A DNA stretch of 64,000 nucleotides from the NCBI RefSeq assembly GCF_009914755.1, contig NC_060939.1, one strand, 5' to 3'. Positions 55,601-63,565 of the stretch are shown here, piece after piece; the first letter of the stretch is position 1; each line of letters begins with the position of its first letter. The translations under genes were made by a program, and so were the position numbers. Source of the stretch: the human T2T-CHM13v2.0 reference genome, Homo sapiens. A model generated the notes under the pieces. It did not search any database. It had not been told where the DNA came from and was given only the letters and a program-made list of their open reading frames with translations.

Positions 55601-57445
55601 TTGAAGCCAGGAGTTCGAGACCAGCCTGGCCAACATGGCAAAACCCTGTCTCTACTAAAAATACAAAAGTTAGCCGGGCATGGTGGCACATGCCTGTAAT
55701 CCCAGCTACTCGGGAGGCTGAGGCAGAAGAATTGCTCGAACCTGGAAGGCGGAGGTTGCGGTGAGCCGAGATCATGCCAGTGCACTCCAGCCTGGGCAAC
55801 AGAGTGAGACTCAGTCTCAAAAAATAAATAAAATTTGTATCAAGGATACATGCACGTATATATATATTTTTAAGTATAGAAGGGCTTATTATAAAAAGCA
55901 AAAACGTCTGTCCTCCCTCACCCCAGGCCAATTTAAAAGGGACTTTTAATCATTTAGGGTTCTTAGGGTTCTTGTTCTACCATTATTTCCTCCATTTTTT
56001 TTTTTTCTTTTTGAGATGGAGTTTCACTCTTGTTGCCCAGGCTGGAGTGCAATGGTGTGATCTCAGCTCACCGCAACCTCTGCATCCCAGGTTCAAGCGA
56101 TTCTCCTGCCTCAGCCTCCCGAGTAGCTGGGATTACAGGCATGTGCTACTACGCCTGGCTAATTTTATATTTTTAGTAGAGACGGGATCTCTCCATGTTG
56201 GTCAGGCTGGTCTCGAACTCAGGTGATCCACACCAAAGTGCTGGGATTATAGGTGTGAGCCACCACGCCCAGCCCATTTCCTCCATATTTTTAAGTAAAA
56301 TACTTACACCACTATTTCTTGGCTTATTTGAATTCCTAACTTTCCCTCACTTACATCTCCCTTCCATTCCTCCCCCCAACATATTCTGTCACCGTACTGT
56401 ATTCACTTCCTTTATTGGTTACCTTTGCAATATAAAACAGTACACTTGACCTGTATTTATTATTCCATTAGCCATTGGCAGCAGCTTGTGACAACCCTGC
56501 TACCATATTATGATGTCTGTCTGTCATCAGTTCTGGTTTCTGAGGTCAAAATTGAAAACACTCCCATTCTGTGTAATAACCATCAGTCTCAAAGACCAGT
56601 GCTTTTTTGGGAGGCTGACGCGGACAGATCACTTGAGTTCAGGAGTTTGAGACCAGCCTGGCCAACATGGTGAAACCCCGTCTCTACTAAAAATACAAAA
56701 ATTAGCTGGGTGTGATGGTGCATGCCTGTAATACCAGCTACTTGGGAGGCCGAGGCAGGAGAATCACTTCAACCTAGGAGGTGGAGGTTGCAGTGAGCCA
56801 AGATCATGCCACTGCACTCCAGCCTGGGCAACGGAGCGAGACTTCGTCTCAAAAAAAAAAGAAAAGCCCATGCTCAACATTTGCATTACTCTGTCAATGC
56901 AAATAGCATTCACTGCAGGGCCCACTTAACATTTCCTTCTCTTTGGGTGTAATGTCACTCAAAGGAAAGTGTTAAATGTATTTTCCTTTCTTAATATTCT
57001 ATTATGTGCTCAAAACTCATCACTTTATATTTTAGTTTGCTCGATATTTTGACCATGCCTTTCGTGCCTGTTTTTCTGGAGCTTCTAATACATCATTTTT
57101 TTTCCCAGCTGTATAGTATTCAGTTGGATTGAGGCATCATAATTTATTTTGACAAGGTCCCCTCTGGTTGGACGGACTCTTTGGTTTTCAGTTTTTTATT
57201 AATGTGAAGGGTGCCGTAGTAAGTATCCTTGTACATACATCTCTGCATCATTTCTTATGTAATGTTTGAGAGTCCAGGAATGCTGCTCGCCCATCAAACC
57301 TGATCCCCCTGCCCCCAGCCCCTTGCCATTGCCACCCTTTGCCTTGCTGATTACCTTCCTTTAAACCAGTCCATCTAAAGGTTGGTGTTAAGAGGCTTCC
57401 CATGGGAGGGGTGGCCCCAGGTAATACCCATCTTCCTCTCCCCAG

Positions 57446-57609
57446 GCTCTGAAGAGCGGCCATTCCTCAGATTCGAAGCTGAACACATCTCCAACTACAC
57501 AGCCCTTCTGCTGAGCAGGGATGGCAGGACCCTGTACGTGGGTGCTCGAGAGGCCCTCTTTGCACTCAGTAGCAACCTCAGCTTCCTGCCAGGCGGGGAG
57601 TACCAGGAG
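57446..57609 (+). CDS. SEMA4B: SEMA4B coding exon 2 (GSEERPFLRFEAEHISNYTALLLSRDGRTLYVGAREALFAL...EYQE), start of Sema domain
   Basis: Pyrimidine tract + CAG acceptor, donor GAG|GTGAGA; 164 nt restores frame; LYVGARE semaphorin motif. Confidence 0.97.
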
Positions 57610-57773
57610 GTGAGAGATGTTGCCTGGAGCTGGCTAGGCTGGGCAGAGGACCACAGAGGGAAGATGGACGGGAAGCTTGACCTTCTGGGTCCAAGGATGA
57701 TGCCTATGGGAGAGGAGGGAGGCTCAGCAAACCCTCCATTTTGTCCACTACCTTCCCCTTTCTCACTCCCCAG

Positions 57774-57836
57774 CTGCTTTGGGGTGCAGACGCAGAGAAG
57801 AAACAGCAGTGCAGCTTCAAGGGCAAGGACCCACAG
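57774..57836 (+). CDS. SEMA4B: SEMA4B coding exon 3 (LLWGADAEKKQQCSFKGKDPQ)
   Basis: AG/GT boundaries, 63 nt, phase 0; C-x-x-KGK Sema motif. Confidence 0.96.
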
Positions 57837-58424
57837 GTGAGCCCACACCTGGAAGGGAGCTGAGCTGCAGGAGGGATGGAGGGTGGTGGACTTCCATCCA
57901 GGCCAGAGGCAGGAGGTGGGAGCAGATACAGCCAGGTATGGTGGGAAGGGCATAAGCTTCTGAGATTACCCGGCCTGGGTTTGAATCCCAGCACTACACT
58001 TACATCGCTACGACCTTCGACAAGTAGATTCACCTGTCTAAGCCTTAGTGGGCCCACCTGTAAAATGGGGATAATGATCCGGTCTCACTGGGCTTACAGT
58101 GAGGATTCAGGAAGCTAATAGGTGTAAGGCACCTGGCTCATAGATACAAGACCTAACAAGTCAGCTTCCAGCGTGAACAGAGATTGGGTGGGGTGAGAGT
58201 TGTGTCCCTCTGCAGATGGTTCCTGATGTAGCACATCTGACAGATTCTGGTGTGGTTTTGGCCAAAGCACAGGATGAAATCTGGTTCAACCCAGGTTCTC
58301 CTGGAGGACTCATCATCATCCCTAGAGGCCTCCTGCTCCTGCTCCTAAGTGCAGCAGGTGCTGGGTAAGGTGAGGGCAAAAGAGTGCTGGACTTGGGATC
58401 AAGACACAGGTTCAAGTCCTGGCT

Positions 58425-61101: not shown

Positions 61102-61374
61102 GTGAGTGTTGAGGGCAGGATGGGTTCATTGAAGGTCCATGTAGGGGCACACAGGGCTAGAGGGCTAGCTTTGGACAGGCTGAGTCCATGCCATGCTTAT
61201 TTCCAAGGGGACAGAATGGCCAGGGGCTTGCCTTGGGTTTGGTTTTTCCAAGTTCCAGCTTCCTTCTCTGCCCACCACAGGCAAAACGGGCAGTGCTGGG
61301 GTCACTCTGGGCCCTGAGCAGGGAGAAGGGGCCGTGCTGAGGAGCCCATTCCCATGGGAATGTTTTCTTGGCAG

Positions 61375-61488
61375 ATGGCGAGCTCTACACTGGAACAGTC
61401 AGCAGCTTCCAAGGGAATGACCCGGCCATCTCGCGGAGCCAAAGCCTTCGCCCCACCAAGACCGAGAGCTCCCTCAACTGGCTGCAAG
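61375..61488 (+). CDS. SEMA4B: SEMA4B coding exon 6 (DGELYTGTVSSFQGNDPAISRSQSLRPTKTESSLNWLQ)
   Basis: GGCAG acceptor, AAG|GTGAAG donor, 114 nt; DGELYTGT motif. Confidence 0.96.
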
Positions 61489-61621
61489 GTGAAGTCCTCT
61501 TGCCACCACCCAGAGGGCAGGGATCCTGTTCACCCAGCCCTAGAAGGGGGCACTTTCCCCCAGCTTGGCCTGTCTCCAGGGTTCCTGGGCTGACTCTGAG
61601 CTCCTGACCTGGTCCCTACAG

Positions 61622-61773
61622 ACCCAGCTTTTGTGGCCTCAGCCTACATTCCTGAGAGCCTGGGCAGCTTGCAAGGCGATGATGACAAGATCTACTTTTT
61701 CTTCAGCGAGACTGGCCAGGAATTTGAGTTCTTTGAGAACACCATTGTGTCCCGCATTGCCCGCATCTGCAAG
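61622..61773 (+). CDS. SEMA4B: SEMA4B coding exon 7 ([51 protein letters not shown])
   Basis: TACAG acceptor, AAG|GTGAGG donor, 152 nt; DDKIYFFF.E and SRIARICK motifs. Confidence 0.97.
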
Positions 61774-63565
61774 GTGAGGGGAACGGGCTGACAGGGTGGC
61801 CACCCCAGGGACCTCAAAGCCTCCACAGCTGCAAGATCACCCACATCCATGCATGGCCTTTCCCATCCCCCAAGGAGTGCAGCTTGGCTAACAGCTTTTC
61901 TCTCTCACCTTTTAAATTAAAATATCTTACTACTTTTTTCTTTTTTTTTTTCTTTTTATTTTTAGACAGGATCTTTGCTCTGTCACCCAGGCTGGAGTGC
62001 AGTGGCACGATCACGGTTCACTGCAGCCTCGACCTCCTGGGCTCAAGCAGTTCTCCTACCTCAGCCTCCCGAGTAGCTGAGACTACAGGTGTGCGCCCCC
62101 ATGCCCAGCTAATTTTTGTATTTTTTGTAGAGATGGGGTTTTACCACGTTGCCTGGGCTGGTCTCAAACTCCTGGGCTCAAACAATCCACCCACCTCGGC
62201 TTCCCAAAGTGCTGGGATTACAGGCATGAGCCACTGCACCCAGCCTTTTTTTTTCTTTTTTTTTTTTTTTTACTTAAAAAATGTGAAAATAGCCGGGCAT
62301 GGTGGCTCACGCCTGTAATCCCAGCACTTTGGGAGGCCAAGGTGGGTGGATCACCTGAGGTCAGGAGTTTGAGACCAACCTGGCCAACATGGTAAAACCC
62401 CATCTCTACTAATAATACAAAAGTTAGCTGGGCGTGGTGGTGCACGCCTGTAATCCTAGCTACTCAGGAGGCTGTGGCAAGAGAATCGCTTGAACCTGGG
62501 AGGTGGAGGTTGCAGTGAGCCGAGATGGTGCCACTGCACTCCAGCCTGGGTGACAGAGCAAGACTGTCTCAAAAAAAAAAATGTGAAAATAGAAAACTGT
62601 ACACACAAAAATCACTTACAAGTTAAAGAGGCACTGTAGCATCAGCTGGAGAGCACAGACCCTGGAGGCCAACTGCCCAAGTTCAAACCCTGCTGGCCTA
62701 GGATCTTGGGCAAGTCCCTCACCCCCTCGGTTAACAGTTTCCTCTTCTGTTAAATAGGAAGAATAACACTGACCTCAGAGTTGTTATGTGAATTATTAAT
62801 CCACGCAAAGCTCTTAGAAATGTGGTGGGCAGTGACTAAATGTGAACTATGAATGTTATTACCCCACCACCCCAGCACAAGGAGTCACTGGTATCATTTT
62901 AGAATGCCCCCTCCAAATCTTTTTTTTTTTTTTTGGCATATGTGTAACTCTGTGTATATATATATATATATATATACATTTTTTTTTTCCTTTTTGAGAC
63001 AGGGTCTCACTTTGTCATCCAGGCTGGTGTGCAGCGGTGAGATTTCACTGCAACCTCCGCTGCCCAATCTCAAGCAATCCTCTCACCTCAGCCCCTCATG
63101 TAGCTGGGACTACCAGCATGCACCACCATGCCCAGCTAATTTTTTTGTATTTTTAGCAGAGACAGGGTCTCAAACTCCTGAGCTCAAGTGATCCACCCGC
63201 CTTGGCCTCCCAAAGTGCTGGAATTATAGGCATTAATAATATAAGTACCATCCCGACCTTGTACTTATATTATTAACTCACTCAGGAACATGGCATTAGG
63301 CTATATTGGGGTCCTTTGGCTTCCTTGTTTGCTCAGCAGTGAATCGCGTCCATATTTAGGAAGGCTCTGCTTAGTCACAGTAAGGACCATCCTCCTGATG
63401 GATGCGTACACTGCTCTTCCTGACTTTAGATGGAACTTGGTCCTGGCCTTCTCCTGCCCTTCAGTCCTGGTGTCTGGGGTGGGTCCATTGAGGCAGTCCT
63501 GTGCCGTGCATCCCCGTCATGGCTCAGCGTGTGCCTAAGCCCAGCCCATCCGACTCTCCCTCCAG

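What the first reader, a model, noticed from the sequence alone, without database searches (positions are those of the whole stretch)
56606..62245. Exons 2-7 form a 704-nt circRNA cassette between inverted Alus; back-splicing closes the +1 ORF at exactly 211 aa
Seen: a + strand Alu ends ~580 nt upstream of exon 2 (56606-56865) and a - strand Alu starts ~160 nt downstream of exon 7 (61935-62245); a second inverted pair is 55995-56274(-) with 62292-62580(+). Established: flanking inverted Alus promote back-splicing. Joining 61773 to 57446 gives 704 nt, and the +1 ORF reads ..GCA AG|G CTC TGA, i.e. 211 aa. I recall a reported circSEMA4B-encoded 211-aa protein (unverified here), which this arithmetic reproduces. 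Inference: the circular product shares its first 210 aa with the linear 250-aa alt-ORF and adds only one Leu after a tryptic Arg. Tryptic peptides therefore cannot prove circular origin, and circularisation would act as a switch removing a 40-aa Cys-rich tail.
Basis: partly seen in the sequence, partly recalled or inferred. Interest (0 to 1): 0.75.

Follow-up and report, generated by a model that had tools for sequence, protein, structure and literature searches.

The report
Known circSEMA4B circle; protein claim shaky
Exons 2-7 of human SEMA4B are the already published 704-base circular RNA circSEMA4B, and its reported 211-residue protein is an out-of-frame reading that the ordinary messenger RNA could make almost identically, so the published evidence does not show that the circle is what gets translated.

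Summary
Exons 2-7 (57446-61773) add up to 704 nt with AG/GT at every border. Joining 61773 to 57446 closes an ORF that starts at ATG 57521 after exactly 211 codons. This is hsa_circ_0000650/circSEMA4B, published in 2022 as exon 2-7, 704 bp, with a 636-nt ORF called "SEMA4B-211aa" (PMC9482637). The three published siRNAs match only this junction.

The ORF lies in the +1 frame of SEMA4B. Its first 210 residues equal a 250-aa ORF of the linear mRNA, and trypsin leaves a single Leu as the only difference. The paper reports no mass spectrometry. Its antibody epitope lies in the shared part. As listed, its "circSEMA4B" qPCR primers are convergent and do not cross the junction.

All four named Alus are real. 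The named pair is not privileged. It ranks 11th of 16 inverted pairs by duplex energy. A 7.7-kb fold instead bridges 56606(+) to 62984(-).

The "switch" idea has no support. Verdict: already known, low interest.

The parts
57446..57609 (+). SEMA4B exon 2 (164 nt); its 5' end is the back-splice acceptor
   Evidence: AG acceptor, GT donor; the published junction siRNAs end or begin here
57774..57836 (+). exon 3 (63 nt)
59801..59899 (+). exon 4 (99 nt)
60990..61101 (+). exon 5 (112 nt)
61375..61488 (+). exon 6 (114 nt)
61622..61773 (+). exon 7 (152 nt); its 3' end is the back-splice donor
   Evidence: three of the four SEMA4B circles in the paper's Table S1 share this donor
57521..57523 (+). ATG of the +1-frame ORF (211 aa on the circle, 250 aa on the mRNA)
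57450..57452 (+). TGA that ends the circle ORF two codons after the junction. It also ends a 39-aa ORF that starts at the third ATG of the mRNA
63566..63689 (+). part of exon 8 that encodes the 40-aa tail of the linear 250-aa alt-ORF (stop at 63687-63689)
57820..59834 (+). span (across intron 3) that encodes the published 17-residue antibody epitope in the +1 frame
   Evidence: the antigen is quoted in the paper
55548..55828 (+).
55995..56274 (-).
56606..56865 (+). 5'-truncated Alu in intron 1, 580 nt upstream of exon 2; the free upstream arm in the folds
58518..58832 (+).
60371..60681 (-).
61935..62245 (-).
62292..62580 (+). Alu in intron 7; forms a near-perfect hairpin with 61935-62245
   Evidence: 276 nt, 84%, 35 nt apart; MFE -482 kcal/mol, z -40
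   Evidence: 189 bp

Best explanation
The feature is the published exonic circular RNA hsa_circ_0000650 (circSEMA4B). The exon 7 donor (61773) is back-spliced to the exon 2 acceptor (57446), giving a 704-nt circle. Shown: the splice sites, the length, the junction sequence and the 211-codon junction-spanning ORF all follow from the window and match the publication. Inferred: back-splicing is helped by a long upstream intron (15.7 kb) and Alu-rich flanks. Intron 1 has a surplus of + Alus (6 +, 3 -) and intron 7 a surplus of - Alus (2 -, 1 +). After the nearest neighbours pair locally, one intron 1 (+) Alu and one intron 7 (-) Alu are left to bridge the two introns. The differences between arrangements are small, so the pairs are probably interchangeable. 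The 211-aa ORF is an out-of-frame (+1) reading of exons that encode the semaphorin domain. Its product would be very basic (pI about 12), with Ser/Ala/Arg/Thr/Pro making up about 62% of residues, and unrelated in sequence to SEMA4B. My reading is that the open frame is most likely fortuitous and that the circle is mainly a non-coding by-product. Endogenous translation of the circle is unproven, because the published reagents cannot separate it from a 250-aa product of the mRNA.
For: Splice sites and the 704-nt sum. The 211-aa ORF across the junction. The linear 250-aa ORF with 210 shared residues. Publication: exon 2-7, 704 bp, junction confirmed by Sanger sequencing, 636-nt ORF, antibody and FLAG evidence only. 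Table S1 gives 4327/704 for hsa_circ_0000650. All 3 of 3 published siRNAs map only across the junction, with 0 hits in the linear exon 1-9 sequence or in the window. Other RNA-seq studies list the same circBase ID (passages only). 'Mass spectrometry', 'mass' and 'peptide' have 0 hits in the main text and in the 3 supplements. The epitope is absent from the 398 canonical residues encoded in the window (best ungapped match 4 of 17), although the paper says it is shared with the 92-kDa SEMA4B. The listed circSEMA4B primers are convergent and give an 83-nt amplicon within exons 5-6 that the mRNA also contains. Alu map, 7SL-type Rfam hits, local hairpins, the best of 24 matchings and the full 7,731-nt fold. 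Sibling circles in Table S1 fit alternative Alu pairings: exons 5-7 are flanked by 60384(-)/62292(+), the strongest of the 16 duplexes. Competition between within-intron and across-intron inverted Alus is established (review PMC11263572, passages).
Against: The paper reports an endogenous band at the predicted size of about 23 kDa, not the roughly 26.6 kDa expected of the linear ORF. It also reports that the band falls with junction siRNA and rises with overexpression, and that a bicistronic reporter shows IRES activity. If the antibody is specific, this favours real translation of the circle. I could not see the blots. A 250-codon open +1 frame arose in only 0.6% of synonymous shuffles, so chance is not a comfortable explanation for this gene taken alone. 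For the Alu model: within-intron inverted pairs (18 in intron 1, 2 in intron 7) outnumber the 15 cross-intron pairs. The exon 2-6 circle in Table S1 has no Alu in its downstream intron 6. The fold left out the six distal intron 1 Alus, and it takes no account of co-transcriptional folding or of the proteins that bind Alu duplexes.
Confidence: 0.8

Rival explanations
1. The published reading: an internal ribosome entry site drives translation of the cytoplasmic circle into a functional 211-aa protein that binds p85 and damps PI3K/AKT signalling.
For: The paper reports bicistronic IRES activity, a FLAG-tagged product of about 26 kDa from a circle vector, an endogenous band of about 23 kDa that follows circle knock-down and overexpression, and p85 pull-down (abstract; section 7; supplement legends). 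The ORF and its strong start context are in the sequence. The open frame is longer than in 99.4% of synonymous shuffles.
Against: There is no mass spectrometry. The epitope lies in the 210 residues shared with the linear ORF. The paper wrongly describes the epitope as shared with SEMA4B, which suggests that the 92-kDa signal is cross-reaction. Only 68 nt of the circle lie outside the ORF, so any IRES must lie within translated sequence. Circle overexpression vectors can give the 'circle' protein from linear trans-spliced by-products (PMC7544230, abstract). The listed qPCR primers do not separate circle from mRNA. A protein of pI about 12 with low-complexity composition is prone to non-specific pull-down (my inference).
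Confidence: 0.15
2. One reading: the pair 56606-56865(+)/61935-62245(-) drives back-splicing. Circularisation then acts as a switch that turns a translated 250-aa linear alt-protein into a 211-aa form without its Cys-rich tail.
For: The pair is real (232 nt, 80% complementary; -383.5 kcal/mol). It appears in the 2nd, 6th and 10th best of 24 Alu matchings. The 40-aa tail has 5 Cys. The alt ATG has G at -3 and G at +4. A 39-aa ORF from the third ATG of the mRNA ends 68 nt upstream of it, which would allow re-initiation (and arithmetic).
Against: The pair ranks 11th of 16. Its downstream arm is held in a hairpin of about 260 bp with 62292(+). No evidence was found that the linear alt-ORF is translated. 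The alt-ORF search listed 12 of 463 papers, and none of the 12 holds SEMA4B. Three ATGs precede the alt ATG in the mRNA, one of them in a strong context. A circle is usually far rarer than its mRNA (general knowledge), so it is a poor switch for a protein that the mRNA also encodes.
Confidence: 0.05
3. Back-splicing of exons 2-7 does not depend on the Alus. It follows from the very long intron 1 (slow removal), from RNA-binding proteins that bridge the introns, or from an exon-skipping lariat.
For: Intron 1 is 15,685 nt. The exon 2-6 circle in Table S1 uses a donor whose intron (133 nt) has no Alu. Strong within-intron pairs compete on both flanks. Inverted flanking Alus are expected by chance in a window that is 28.7% Alu.
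Against: Three of the four listed SEMA4B circles use the exon 7 donor, next to the only Alu-bearing downstream intron. Their acceptors follow Alu-bearing introns. Among introns 1-8, 6 of the 28 intron pairs have a cross-intron inverted pair, and 2 of the 3 circles inside that set fall among those 6 (arithmetic; hypergeometric p about 0.11, so weak). No transcript that skips exons 2-7 appears in the hub's annotation, and such a skip would shift the frame (704 mod 3 = 2).
Confidence: 0.25

Closest known systems
hsa_circ_0000650 / circSEMA4B and 'SEMA4B-211aa' (Wang et al., Cell Death Dis 2022, PMC9482637)
   Same: It is the same object. Exons 2-7, 704 nt, genomic span 4327, junction ..CTGCAAG|GCTCTGA.., a 636-nt ORF of 211 aa, and the antigen at residues 46-62 of the ORF computed here all match.
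   Different: The paper does not mention Alus (0 hits). It does not say that the ORF is out of frame with SEMA4B, and it does not mention the 250-aa linear ORF. It states that the epitope is shared with SEMA4B, which the sequence contradicts for the 398 residues encoded in the window.
Circular RNAs flanked by inverted Alu repeats, with alternative back-splicing through competing pairs (review PMC11263572, passages read)
   Same: Inverted Alus lie in both flanking introns. Several circles share one back-splice site (exon 7 donor: 3 of 4; exon 2 acceptor: 2 of 4). Within-intron pairs compete with cross-intron pairs.
   Different: Dependence on the Alus has not been tested for this locus. Here within-intron pairs are closer and stronger than the bridging pairs, and one sibling circle (exons 2-6) has no Alu in its immediate downstream intron.
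circPPP1R12A-encoded peptide, listed in the review 'Translation of circular RNAs' (PMC11724312, one table passage read) as encoded in a different reading frame from the host protein
   Same: It is a reported circRNA-encoded product read in another frame than the host protein, with no relatives.
   Different: For SEMA4B nearly the whole out-of-frame ORF is also present in the linear mRNA, and only one residue is specific to the circle. That review does not mention SEMA4B (0 hits).
circZNF609 overexpression artefacts (Ho-Xuan et al., NAR 2020, PMC7544230, abstract read)
   Same: It uses the same kind of evidence, a tagged ORF in a circle-expression plasmid. The cautionary result there was that the protein came from linear trans-spliced by-products and that no endogenous protein was detected.
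   Different: It concerns a different gene, and no such control experiment has been seen for circSEMA4B. The parallel is an inference.
Out-of-frame alternative ORFs overlapping annotated coding sequences (HAltORF and OpenProt type; search listing only)
   Same: A long ATG-initiated ORF lies in the +1 frame of a GC-rich CDS (GC3 76%) with a strong start context.
   Different: No evidence of translation or conservation for this ORF was found or could be tested here.

Membership tests
Exonic circular RNA made by back-splicing (hsa_circ_0000650) | Canonical AG acceptor at the upstream exon and GT donor at the downstream exon | tested here: met
   AG before 57446 and GT after 61773
Exonic circular RNA made by back-splicing (hsa_circ_0000650) | Coordinates and spliced length equal to the catalogued circle | tested here: met
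   61773-57446 = 4327 and the exons sum to 704, as in Table S1 of PMC9482637. All 3 of 3 published junction siRNAs map only to the joined 61773|57446 sequence
Exonic circular RNA made by back-splicing (hsa_circ_0000650) | Back-splice reads, RNase R resistance, divergent-primer product | not testable with these tools
   Reported in the paper's text (Sanger junction, RNase R), but the figures were not seen. The primers listed as circSEMA4B-F/R are convergent and do not cross the junction
Circular RNA driven by inverted Alu repeats | Complementary Alus in opposite orientation in the two flanking introns | tested here: met
   15 cross-intron inverted pairs between intron 1 (9 Alus) and intron 7 (3 Alus); duplex energies from -295 to -422 kcal/mol for the proximal ones
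Circular RNA driven by inverted Alu repeats | Cross-intron pairing competes successfully with within-intron pairing | tested here: inconclusive
   Within-intron pairs are closer and mostly stronger. Even so, the 7,731-nt MFE fold keeps one bridge of 189 bp, 56606(+)/62984(-). This is an energy model only
Circular RNA driven by inverted Alu repeats | Circle is lost on deleting or inverting an arm and rescued by restoring complementarity | not testable with these tools
   Needs a minigene or genome editing; the paper has no such experiment ('Alu' 0 hits)
circRNA-encoded protein with a junction-spanning ORF | ATG-initiated ORF that crosses the back-splice junction and ends on the circle | tested here: met
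   211 aa, from 57521 to the stop at 57450-57452; no endless ORF, since 704 mod 3 = 2
circRNA-encoded protein with a junction-spanning ORF | Junction-specific peptide detected in untransfected cells | not testable with these tools
   Nothing in the paper (0 hits for mass spectrometry, mass and peptide). After full tryptic digestion the only specific product is a free Leu
circRNA-encoded protein with a junction-spanning ORF | Reagents that separate the circle's product from any product of the linear mRNA | tested here: not met
   The epitope (residues 46-62) lies in the 210 residues shared with the linear 250-aa ORF. Only size (22.6 against 26.6 kDa) could separate the two
Functional overlapping (dual-coding) alt-ORF | Open alternative frame longer than expected from the codon usage of the main frame | tested here: inconclusive
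   0.6% of 5000 synonymous shuffles reach 250 codons, but the total number of +1 stops is ordinary (6 against 7.5 +/- 1.7). The test is post hoc, on one gene among thousands
Functional overlapping (dual-coding) alt-ORF | Conservation of the open frame in orthologues; ribosome footprints in that frame | not testable with these tools
   No vertebrate genomes or Ribo-seq data are held

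The most novel reading that the evidence does not exclude
Exons 2-8 of SEMA4B are truly dual-coding. On this reading the mRNA yields a 250-aa, very basic +1-frame protein, reached by re-initiation after the 39-aa ORF that ends at TGA 57450-57452, 68 nt upstream of the alt ATG. 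Back-splicing uses that same TGA to make a 211-aa form without the tail. One stop codon would thus serve both routes, and circle formation would tune the ratio of tailed to tail-less protein.
Probability: 0.04. Interest if true: 0.6.

Novelty: already known. Interest (0 to 1): 0.22.

Why it matters
The circle and its 211-aa ORF are in print, so the finding adds no new element to the genome. Its value is as a check on a claim that many papers repeat: 124 papers in the held library carry 'circSEMA4B' or '211aa'. The sequence shows three things. First, 'SEMA4B-211aa' is not a truncated semaphorin, as one review calls it. It is an out-of-frame product. Second, 210 of its 211 residues are also encoded by the ordinary mRNA. 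Third, the antibody and the qPCR primers, as listed in the paper, cannot tell circle from mRNA. The case shows why reports of circle-encoded proteins need junction-specific, non-tryptic proteomics. I found no paper that links circSEMA4B with 'out-of-frame': 3 papers hold both terms, I read 2, and neither links them.

Tried and rejected

2. I searched for evidence that the linear alt-ORF is known or translated (SEMA4B with altORF, OpenProt and out-of-frame terms). Of 463 papers, 12 were listed, and none of the 12 holds SEMA4B. This does not exclude such a paper.

3. A broad search on frame terms listed 15 of 3,579 papers, none holding circSEMA4B, so it was uninformative. The narrower search found 3 papers. 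I read 2, and in neither does 'out-of-frame' refer to circSEMA4B. The third, PMC12643049, was not read.

4. I did not send the 211-aa and 250-aa products to the family, homology or structure tools, because they are spliced (joined) sequences that these tools do not take. Whether they hit any family or fold is therefore open. Their composition (pI 11.97; Ser/Ala/Arg/Thr/Pro about 62%) was computed locally.

5. I considered searching with single-exon +1-frame pieces of 50 aa or less and dropped the idea. A blank from mainly microbial databases would say nothing.

6. I rejected the idea that the named Alu pair is the unique driver.

7. I considered an exon-skipping lariat route. No transcript skipping exons 2-7 is annotated, and the skip would shift the frame.

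8. The epitope could be checked only against the 398 canonical residues encoded in the window. Exons 10-14 lie outside the window.

9. I could not see the paper's figures (blots, the Sanger trace, the IRES map), and 7 of the 14 pages of supplement 1 are pictures. Primers for the Sanger product may differ from those in Table S2.

Full report
**What was checked**

The window is human chr15 and carries SEMA4B. Exons 2-7 of the selected transcript (57446-57609, 57774-57836, 59801-59899, 60990-61101, 61375-61488, 61622-61773) are 164, 63, 99, 112, 114 and 152 nt long. They sum to 704 nt, and every exon is bounded by AG and GT.

I treated the six exons as a circle and listed every ATG-initiated ORF.
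- The longest starts at 57521 and has G at -3 and G at +4.
- It lies in the +1 frame relative to the SEMA4B coding frame.
- It crosses the junction as ..AG|G CTC TGA and ends at 57450-57452 after 211 codons.
- No ORF is endless, because 704 mod 3 = 2.
- In the linear exon 1-9 sequence the same ATG opens a 250-codon ORF that ends at 63687-63689 in exon 8.
- The first 210 residues are identical. The circle adds one Leu after an Arg, and the mRNA adds 40 residues with 5 Cys.

**It is already published**

A full-text search found Wang et al., Cell Death Dis 2022 (PMC9482637). I read the abstract, passages, the whole of section 7, the searchable supplements and the whole text of supplement 1. I could not see the figures.

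- It gives a 636-nt ORF encoding "SEMA4B-211aa".
- Its Table S1 gives genomic length 4327 and spliced length 704, equal to 61773-57446.
- The sense strands of its three junction siRNAs map only onto the joined 61773|57446 sequence. None maps in the linear exon 1-9 sequence or in the genomic window.
- Its 17-residue antigen sits at residues 46-62 of the ORF computed here.

The object and the ORF are therefore the same.

The circBase ID also appears in other RNA-seq studies (passages). A circSEMA4B is described in disc degeneration (review passages). Whether that one is the same isoform I could not tell.

The ORF is out of frame with SEMA4B. The predicted product has pI 11.97, with Ser, Ala, Arg, Thr and Pro making up about 62% of residues. 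The canonical frame over the same span has pI 4.83.

In-silico digestion shows the following:
- Trypsin or Arg-C leaves a free Leu as the only circle-specific product.
- Lys-C would give a 34-residue C-terminal peptide specific to the circle.
- Chymotrypsin would give a 10-residue specific peptide.

So "tryptic peptides cannot prove circular origin" holds for complete digestion, but non-tryptic proteomics is feasible.

The paper contains no mass spectrometry: there are 0 hits for 'mass spectrometry' in the main text and for 'mass' and 'peptide' in the 3 supplements. It relies on an antibody whose epitope lies in the shared 210 residues. [quoted passage not shown] The sequence contradicts this for the 398 canonical residues encoded in the window, where the best ungapped match is 4 of 17. 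The rest of SEMA4B lies outside the window.

The FLAG evidence comes from a circle-expression plasmid. For circZNF609, such plasmids gave the "circle" protein from linear trans-spliced by-products (PMC7544230, abstract).

Some evidence points the other way. The paper reports an endogenous band at about 23 kDa, where the linear ORF would give about 26.6 kDa. It reports that the band follows junction knock-down and overexpression, and that a bicistronic reporter shows IRES activity. I cannot judge the blots.

**The published primers**

As listed in Table S2:
- "circSEMA4B-F" maps to circle positions 426-442. It is a sense primer that spans the exon 5/6 splice junction.
- "circSEMA4B-R" maps to positions 492-508. 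It is an antisense primer in exon 6.
- The two are convergent and give an 83-nt amplicon. The amplicon does not cross the back-splice junction and is also present in the mRNA.
- Because the forward primer spans a splice junction, the reported absence of a product from genomic DNA is explained without any circle.
- The "SEMA4B" primers both lie in exon 2, inside the circle.

The table may be mislabelled, or other primers may have been used for Sanger sequencing. As listed, neither pair separates circle from mRNA.

**Is the open frame more than chance?**

I shuffled synonymous codons among positions with the same amino acid, over the 398 in-window codons, 5000 times.
- An ATG-ORF of 250 or more codons arose in the +1 frame in 0.6% of shuffles.
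- A stop-free run of 252 or more arose in 2.1%.
- The number of +1 stops is ordinary (6 observed, 7.5 +/- 1.7 expected).

For one gene picked after the fact, out of thousands of GC-rich genes (GC3 is 76% here), this is weak evidence for selection. Conservation could not be tested because no vertebrate genomes are held.

**The Alus**

All four named elements are Alus on the stated strands. This rests on blastn with an in-window copy, sub-threshold 7SL (RF00017) hits on the matching strands and direct reading.

- The window holds 68 Alu copies of at least 150 nt, which is 28.7% of its bases.
- Intron 1 has nine Alus (6 +, 3 -).
- Intron 3 has one, 58518(+).
- Intron 4 has one, 60384(-).
- Intron 7 has three: 61953(-), 62292(+) and 62984(-).

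Among the eight nearest Alus there are 16 inverted pairs.
- The named pair 56606(+)/61953(-) ranks 11th, at -383.5 kcal/mol.
- The strongest is 60384(-)/62292(+), at -506.3. It flanks exons 5-7.
- Second is the within-intron 7 pair 61953(-)/62292(+), whose arms lie 47 nt apart.

Folded alone, that intron 7 pair forms a near-perfect hairpin, with MFE -482 kcal/mol and z = -40 against 20 shuffles. Upstream, 55548(+) pairs with 56003(-) and leaves 56606(+) free.

I enumerated all 24 perfect matchings of the eight Alus. The best is 55548/56003, 58518/60384, 61953/62292 plus the bridge 56606(+)/62984(-), at -1675 kcal/mol. Of the ten best, 8 contain at least one intron 1-intron 7 bridge.

A full minimum-energy fold of 55530-63260 (7,731 nt) gives the same nested picture: 259, 255 and 222 bp for the three local pairs and 189 bp for the bridge 56608-56860 with 63212-62984.

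This is an energy model. It leaves out the six distal intron 1 Alus, co-transcriptional folding and Alu-binding proteins. The differences between arrangements are about 1-2% of the total energy.

What I take from it:
- The downstream partner is more likely 62984(-) or interchangeable with it.
- What favours a bridge is the surplus of + Alus upstream and of - Alus downstream.

Competition between within-intron and across-intron pairs, and several circles sharing a site, are established behaviour (review PMC11263572, passages).

**Sibling circles**

Table S1 lists four SEMA4B circles in MCF-7:
- exons 2-7 (704 nt);
- exons 5-7 (genomic 784, spliced 378);
- exons 2-6 (4042, 552);
- a 982-nt circle that adds the alternative exon 41483-41760 (278 nt).

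Three of the four use the exon 7 donor. The exon 5-7 circle is flanked by the strongest duplex in my list. The exon 2-6 circle has no Alu in its 133-nt downstream intron, which the Alu model does not explain directly.

Among introns 1-8, 6 of the 28 intron pairs have a cross-intron inverted pair. Two of the three circles within that set fall among those 6 (arithmetic; p about 0.11). That is suggestive only.

**Verdict**

- The circle and its 211-aa ORF are already known.
- The point about tryptic peptides and the linear ORF is correct. Within the searches I made I found no paper that states it.
- The Alu mechanism is plausible but untested, and the named pair is not the best candidate.
- The "switch" is speculation.

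My estimates are about 0.95 that this is circSEMA4B as published, about 0.6 that Alu pairing contributes to its formation, and about 0.15-0.2 that an endogenous 211-aa protein is made from the circle at meaningful levels.

Noticed in passing
window 61089-61101 + 61375-61378 (forward primer) and 61428-61444 (reverse primer): The qPCR primers listed as circSEMA4B-F/R in Table S2 of PMC9482637 are convergent. They give an 83-nt amplicon within exons 5-6 and do not cross the back-splice junction. The forward primer spans the exon 5/6 splice junction, which alone explains the lack of a product from genomic DNA. The 'linear SEMA4B' primers (57470.., 57556..) both lie in exon 2, inside the circle.
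   Followed up: yes
window 59885 onward, across the junction to exon 2: In the canonical SEMA4B frame the circle carries a 153-aa ORF that starts at the Met at 59885. It has 22 residues after the junction that the mRNA does not encode. That ORF, unlike the published one, would give circle-specific tryptic peptides.
   Followed up: partly
window 60990-61773 (exons 5-7) and 57446-61488 (exons 2-6): Two sibling circles in the paper's Table S1 (378 and 552 nt) are multiples of three and carry stop-free, endless ORFs. The 982-nt circle that adds exon 41483-41760 contains the canonical ATG at 41604. It gives a 314-aa ORF: 287 SEMA4B residues plus 27 after the junction.
   Followed up: partly
window 41648 (third ATG of the mRNA) to 57450-57452: A 39-aa ORF from the third ATG of the mRNA ends at the same TGA that closes the circle ORF, 68 nt upstream of the alt-ORF ATG at 57521. 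This geometry would allow re-initiation on the linear mRNA (plus arithmetic).
   Followed up: no
window 62126-62410, both strands: Sub-threshold Rfam hits to several miRNA-precursor families (MIR5048, mir-1972, MIR7504 and others) lie over the centre of the hairpin formed by the two adjacent inverted Alus of intron 7. All score below their gathering scores and most likely reflect the Alu hairpin, not miRNA genes.
   Followed up: no
PMC9482637, legend of Fig. 1f,g: The legend of the RNase R panel names hsa_circ_0005273, a circle from another paper by the same group, and not hsa_circ_0000650.
   Followed up: no
window 41483-61773: The hg19 span of the 982-nt circle in Table S1 is 20,308. The same span in this T2T window is 20,290, an 18-nt difference somewhere in intron 1. 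The exon 2-7 span is identical in both (4327).
   Followed up: no
PMC10487980, section 8: [quoted passage not shown] The sequence shows it is an out-of-frame product with no identity to SEMA4B.
   Followed up: yes
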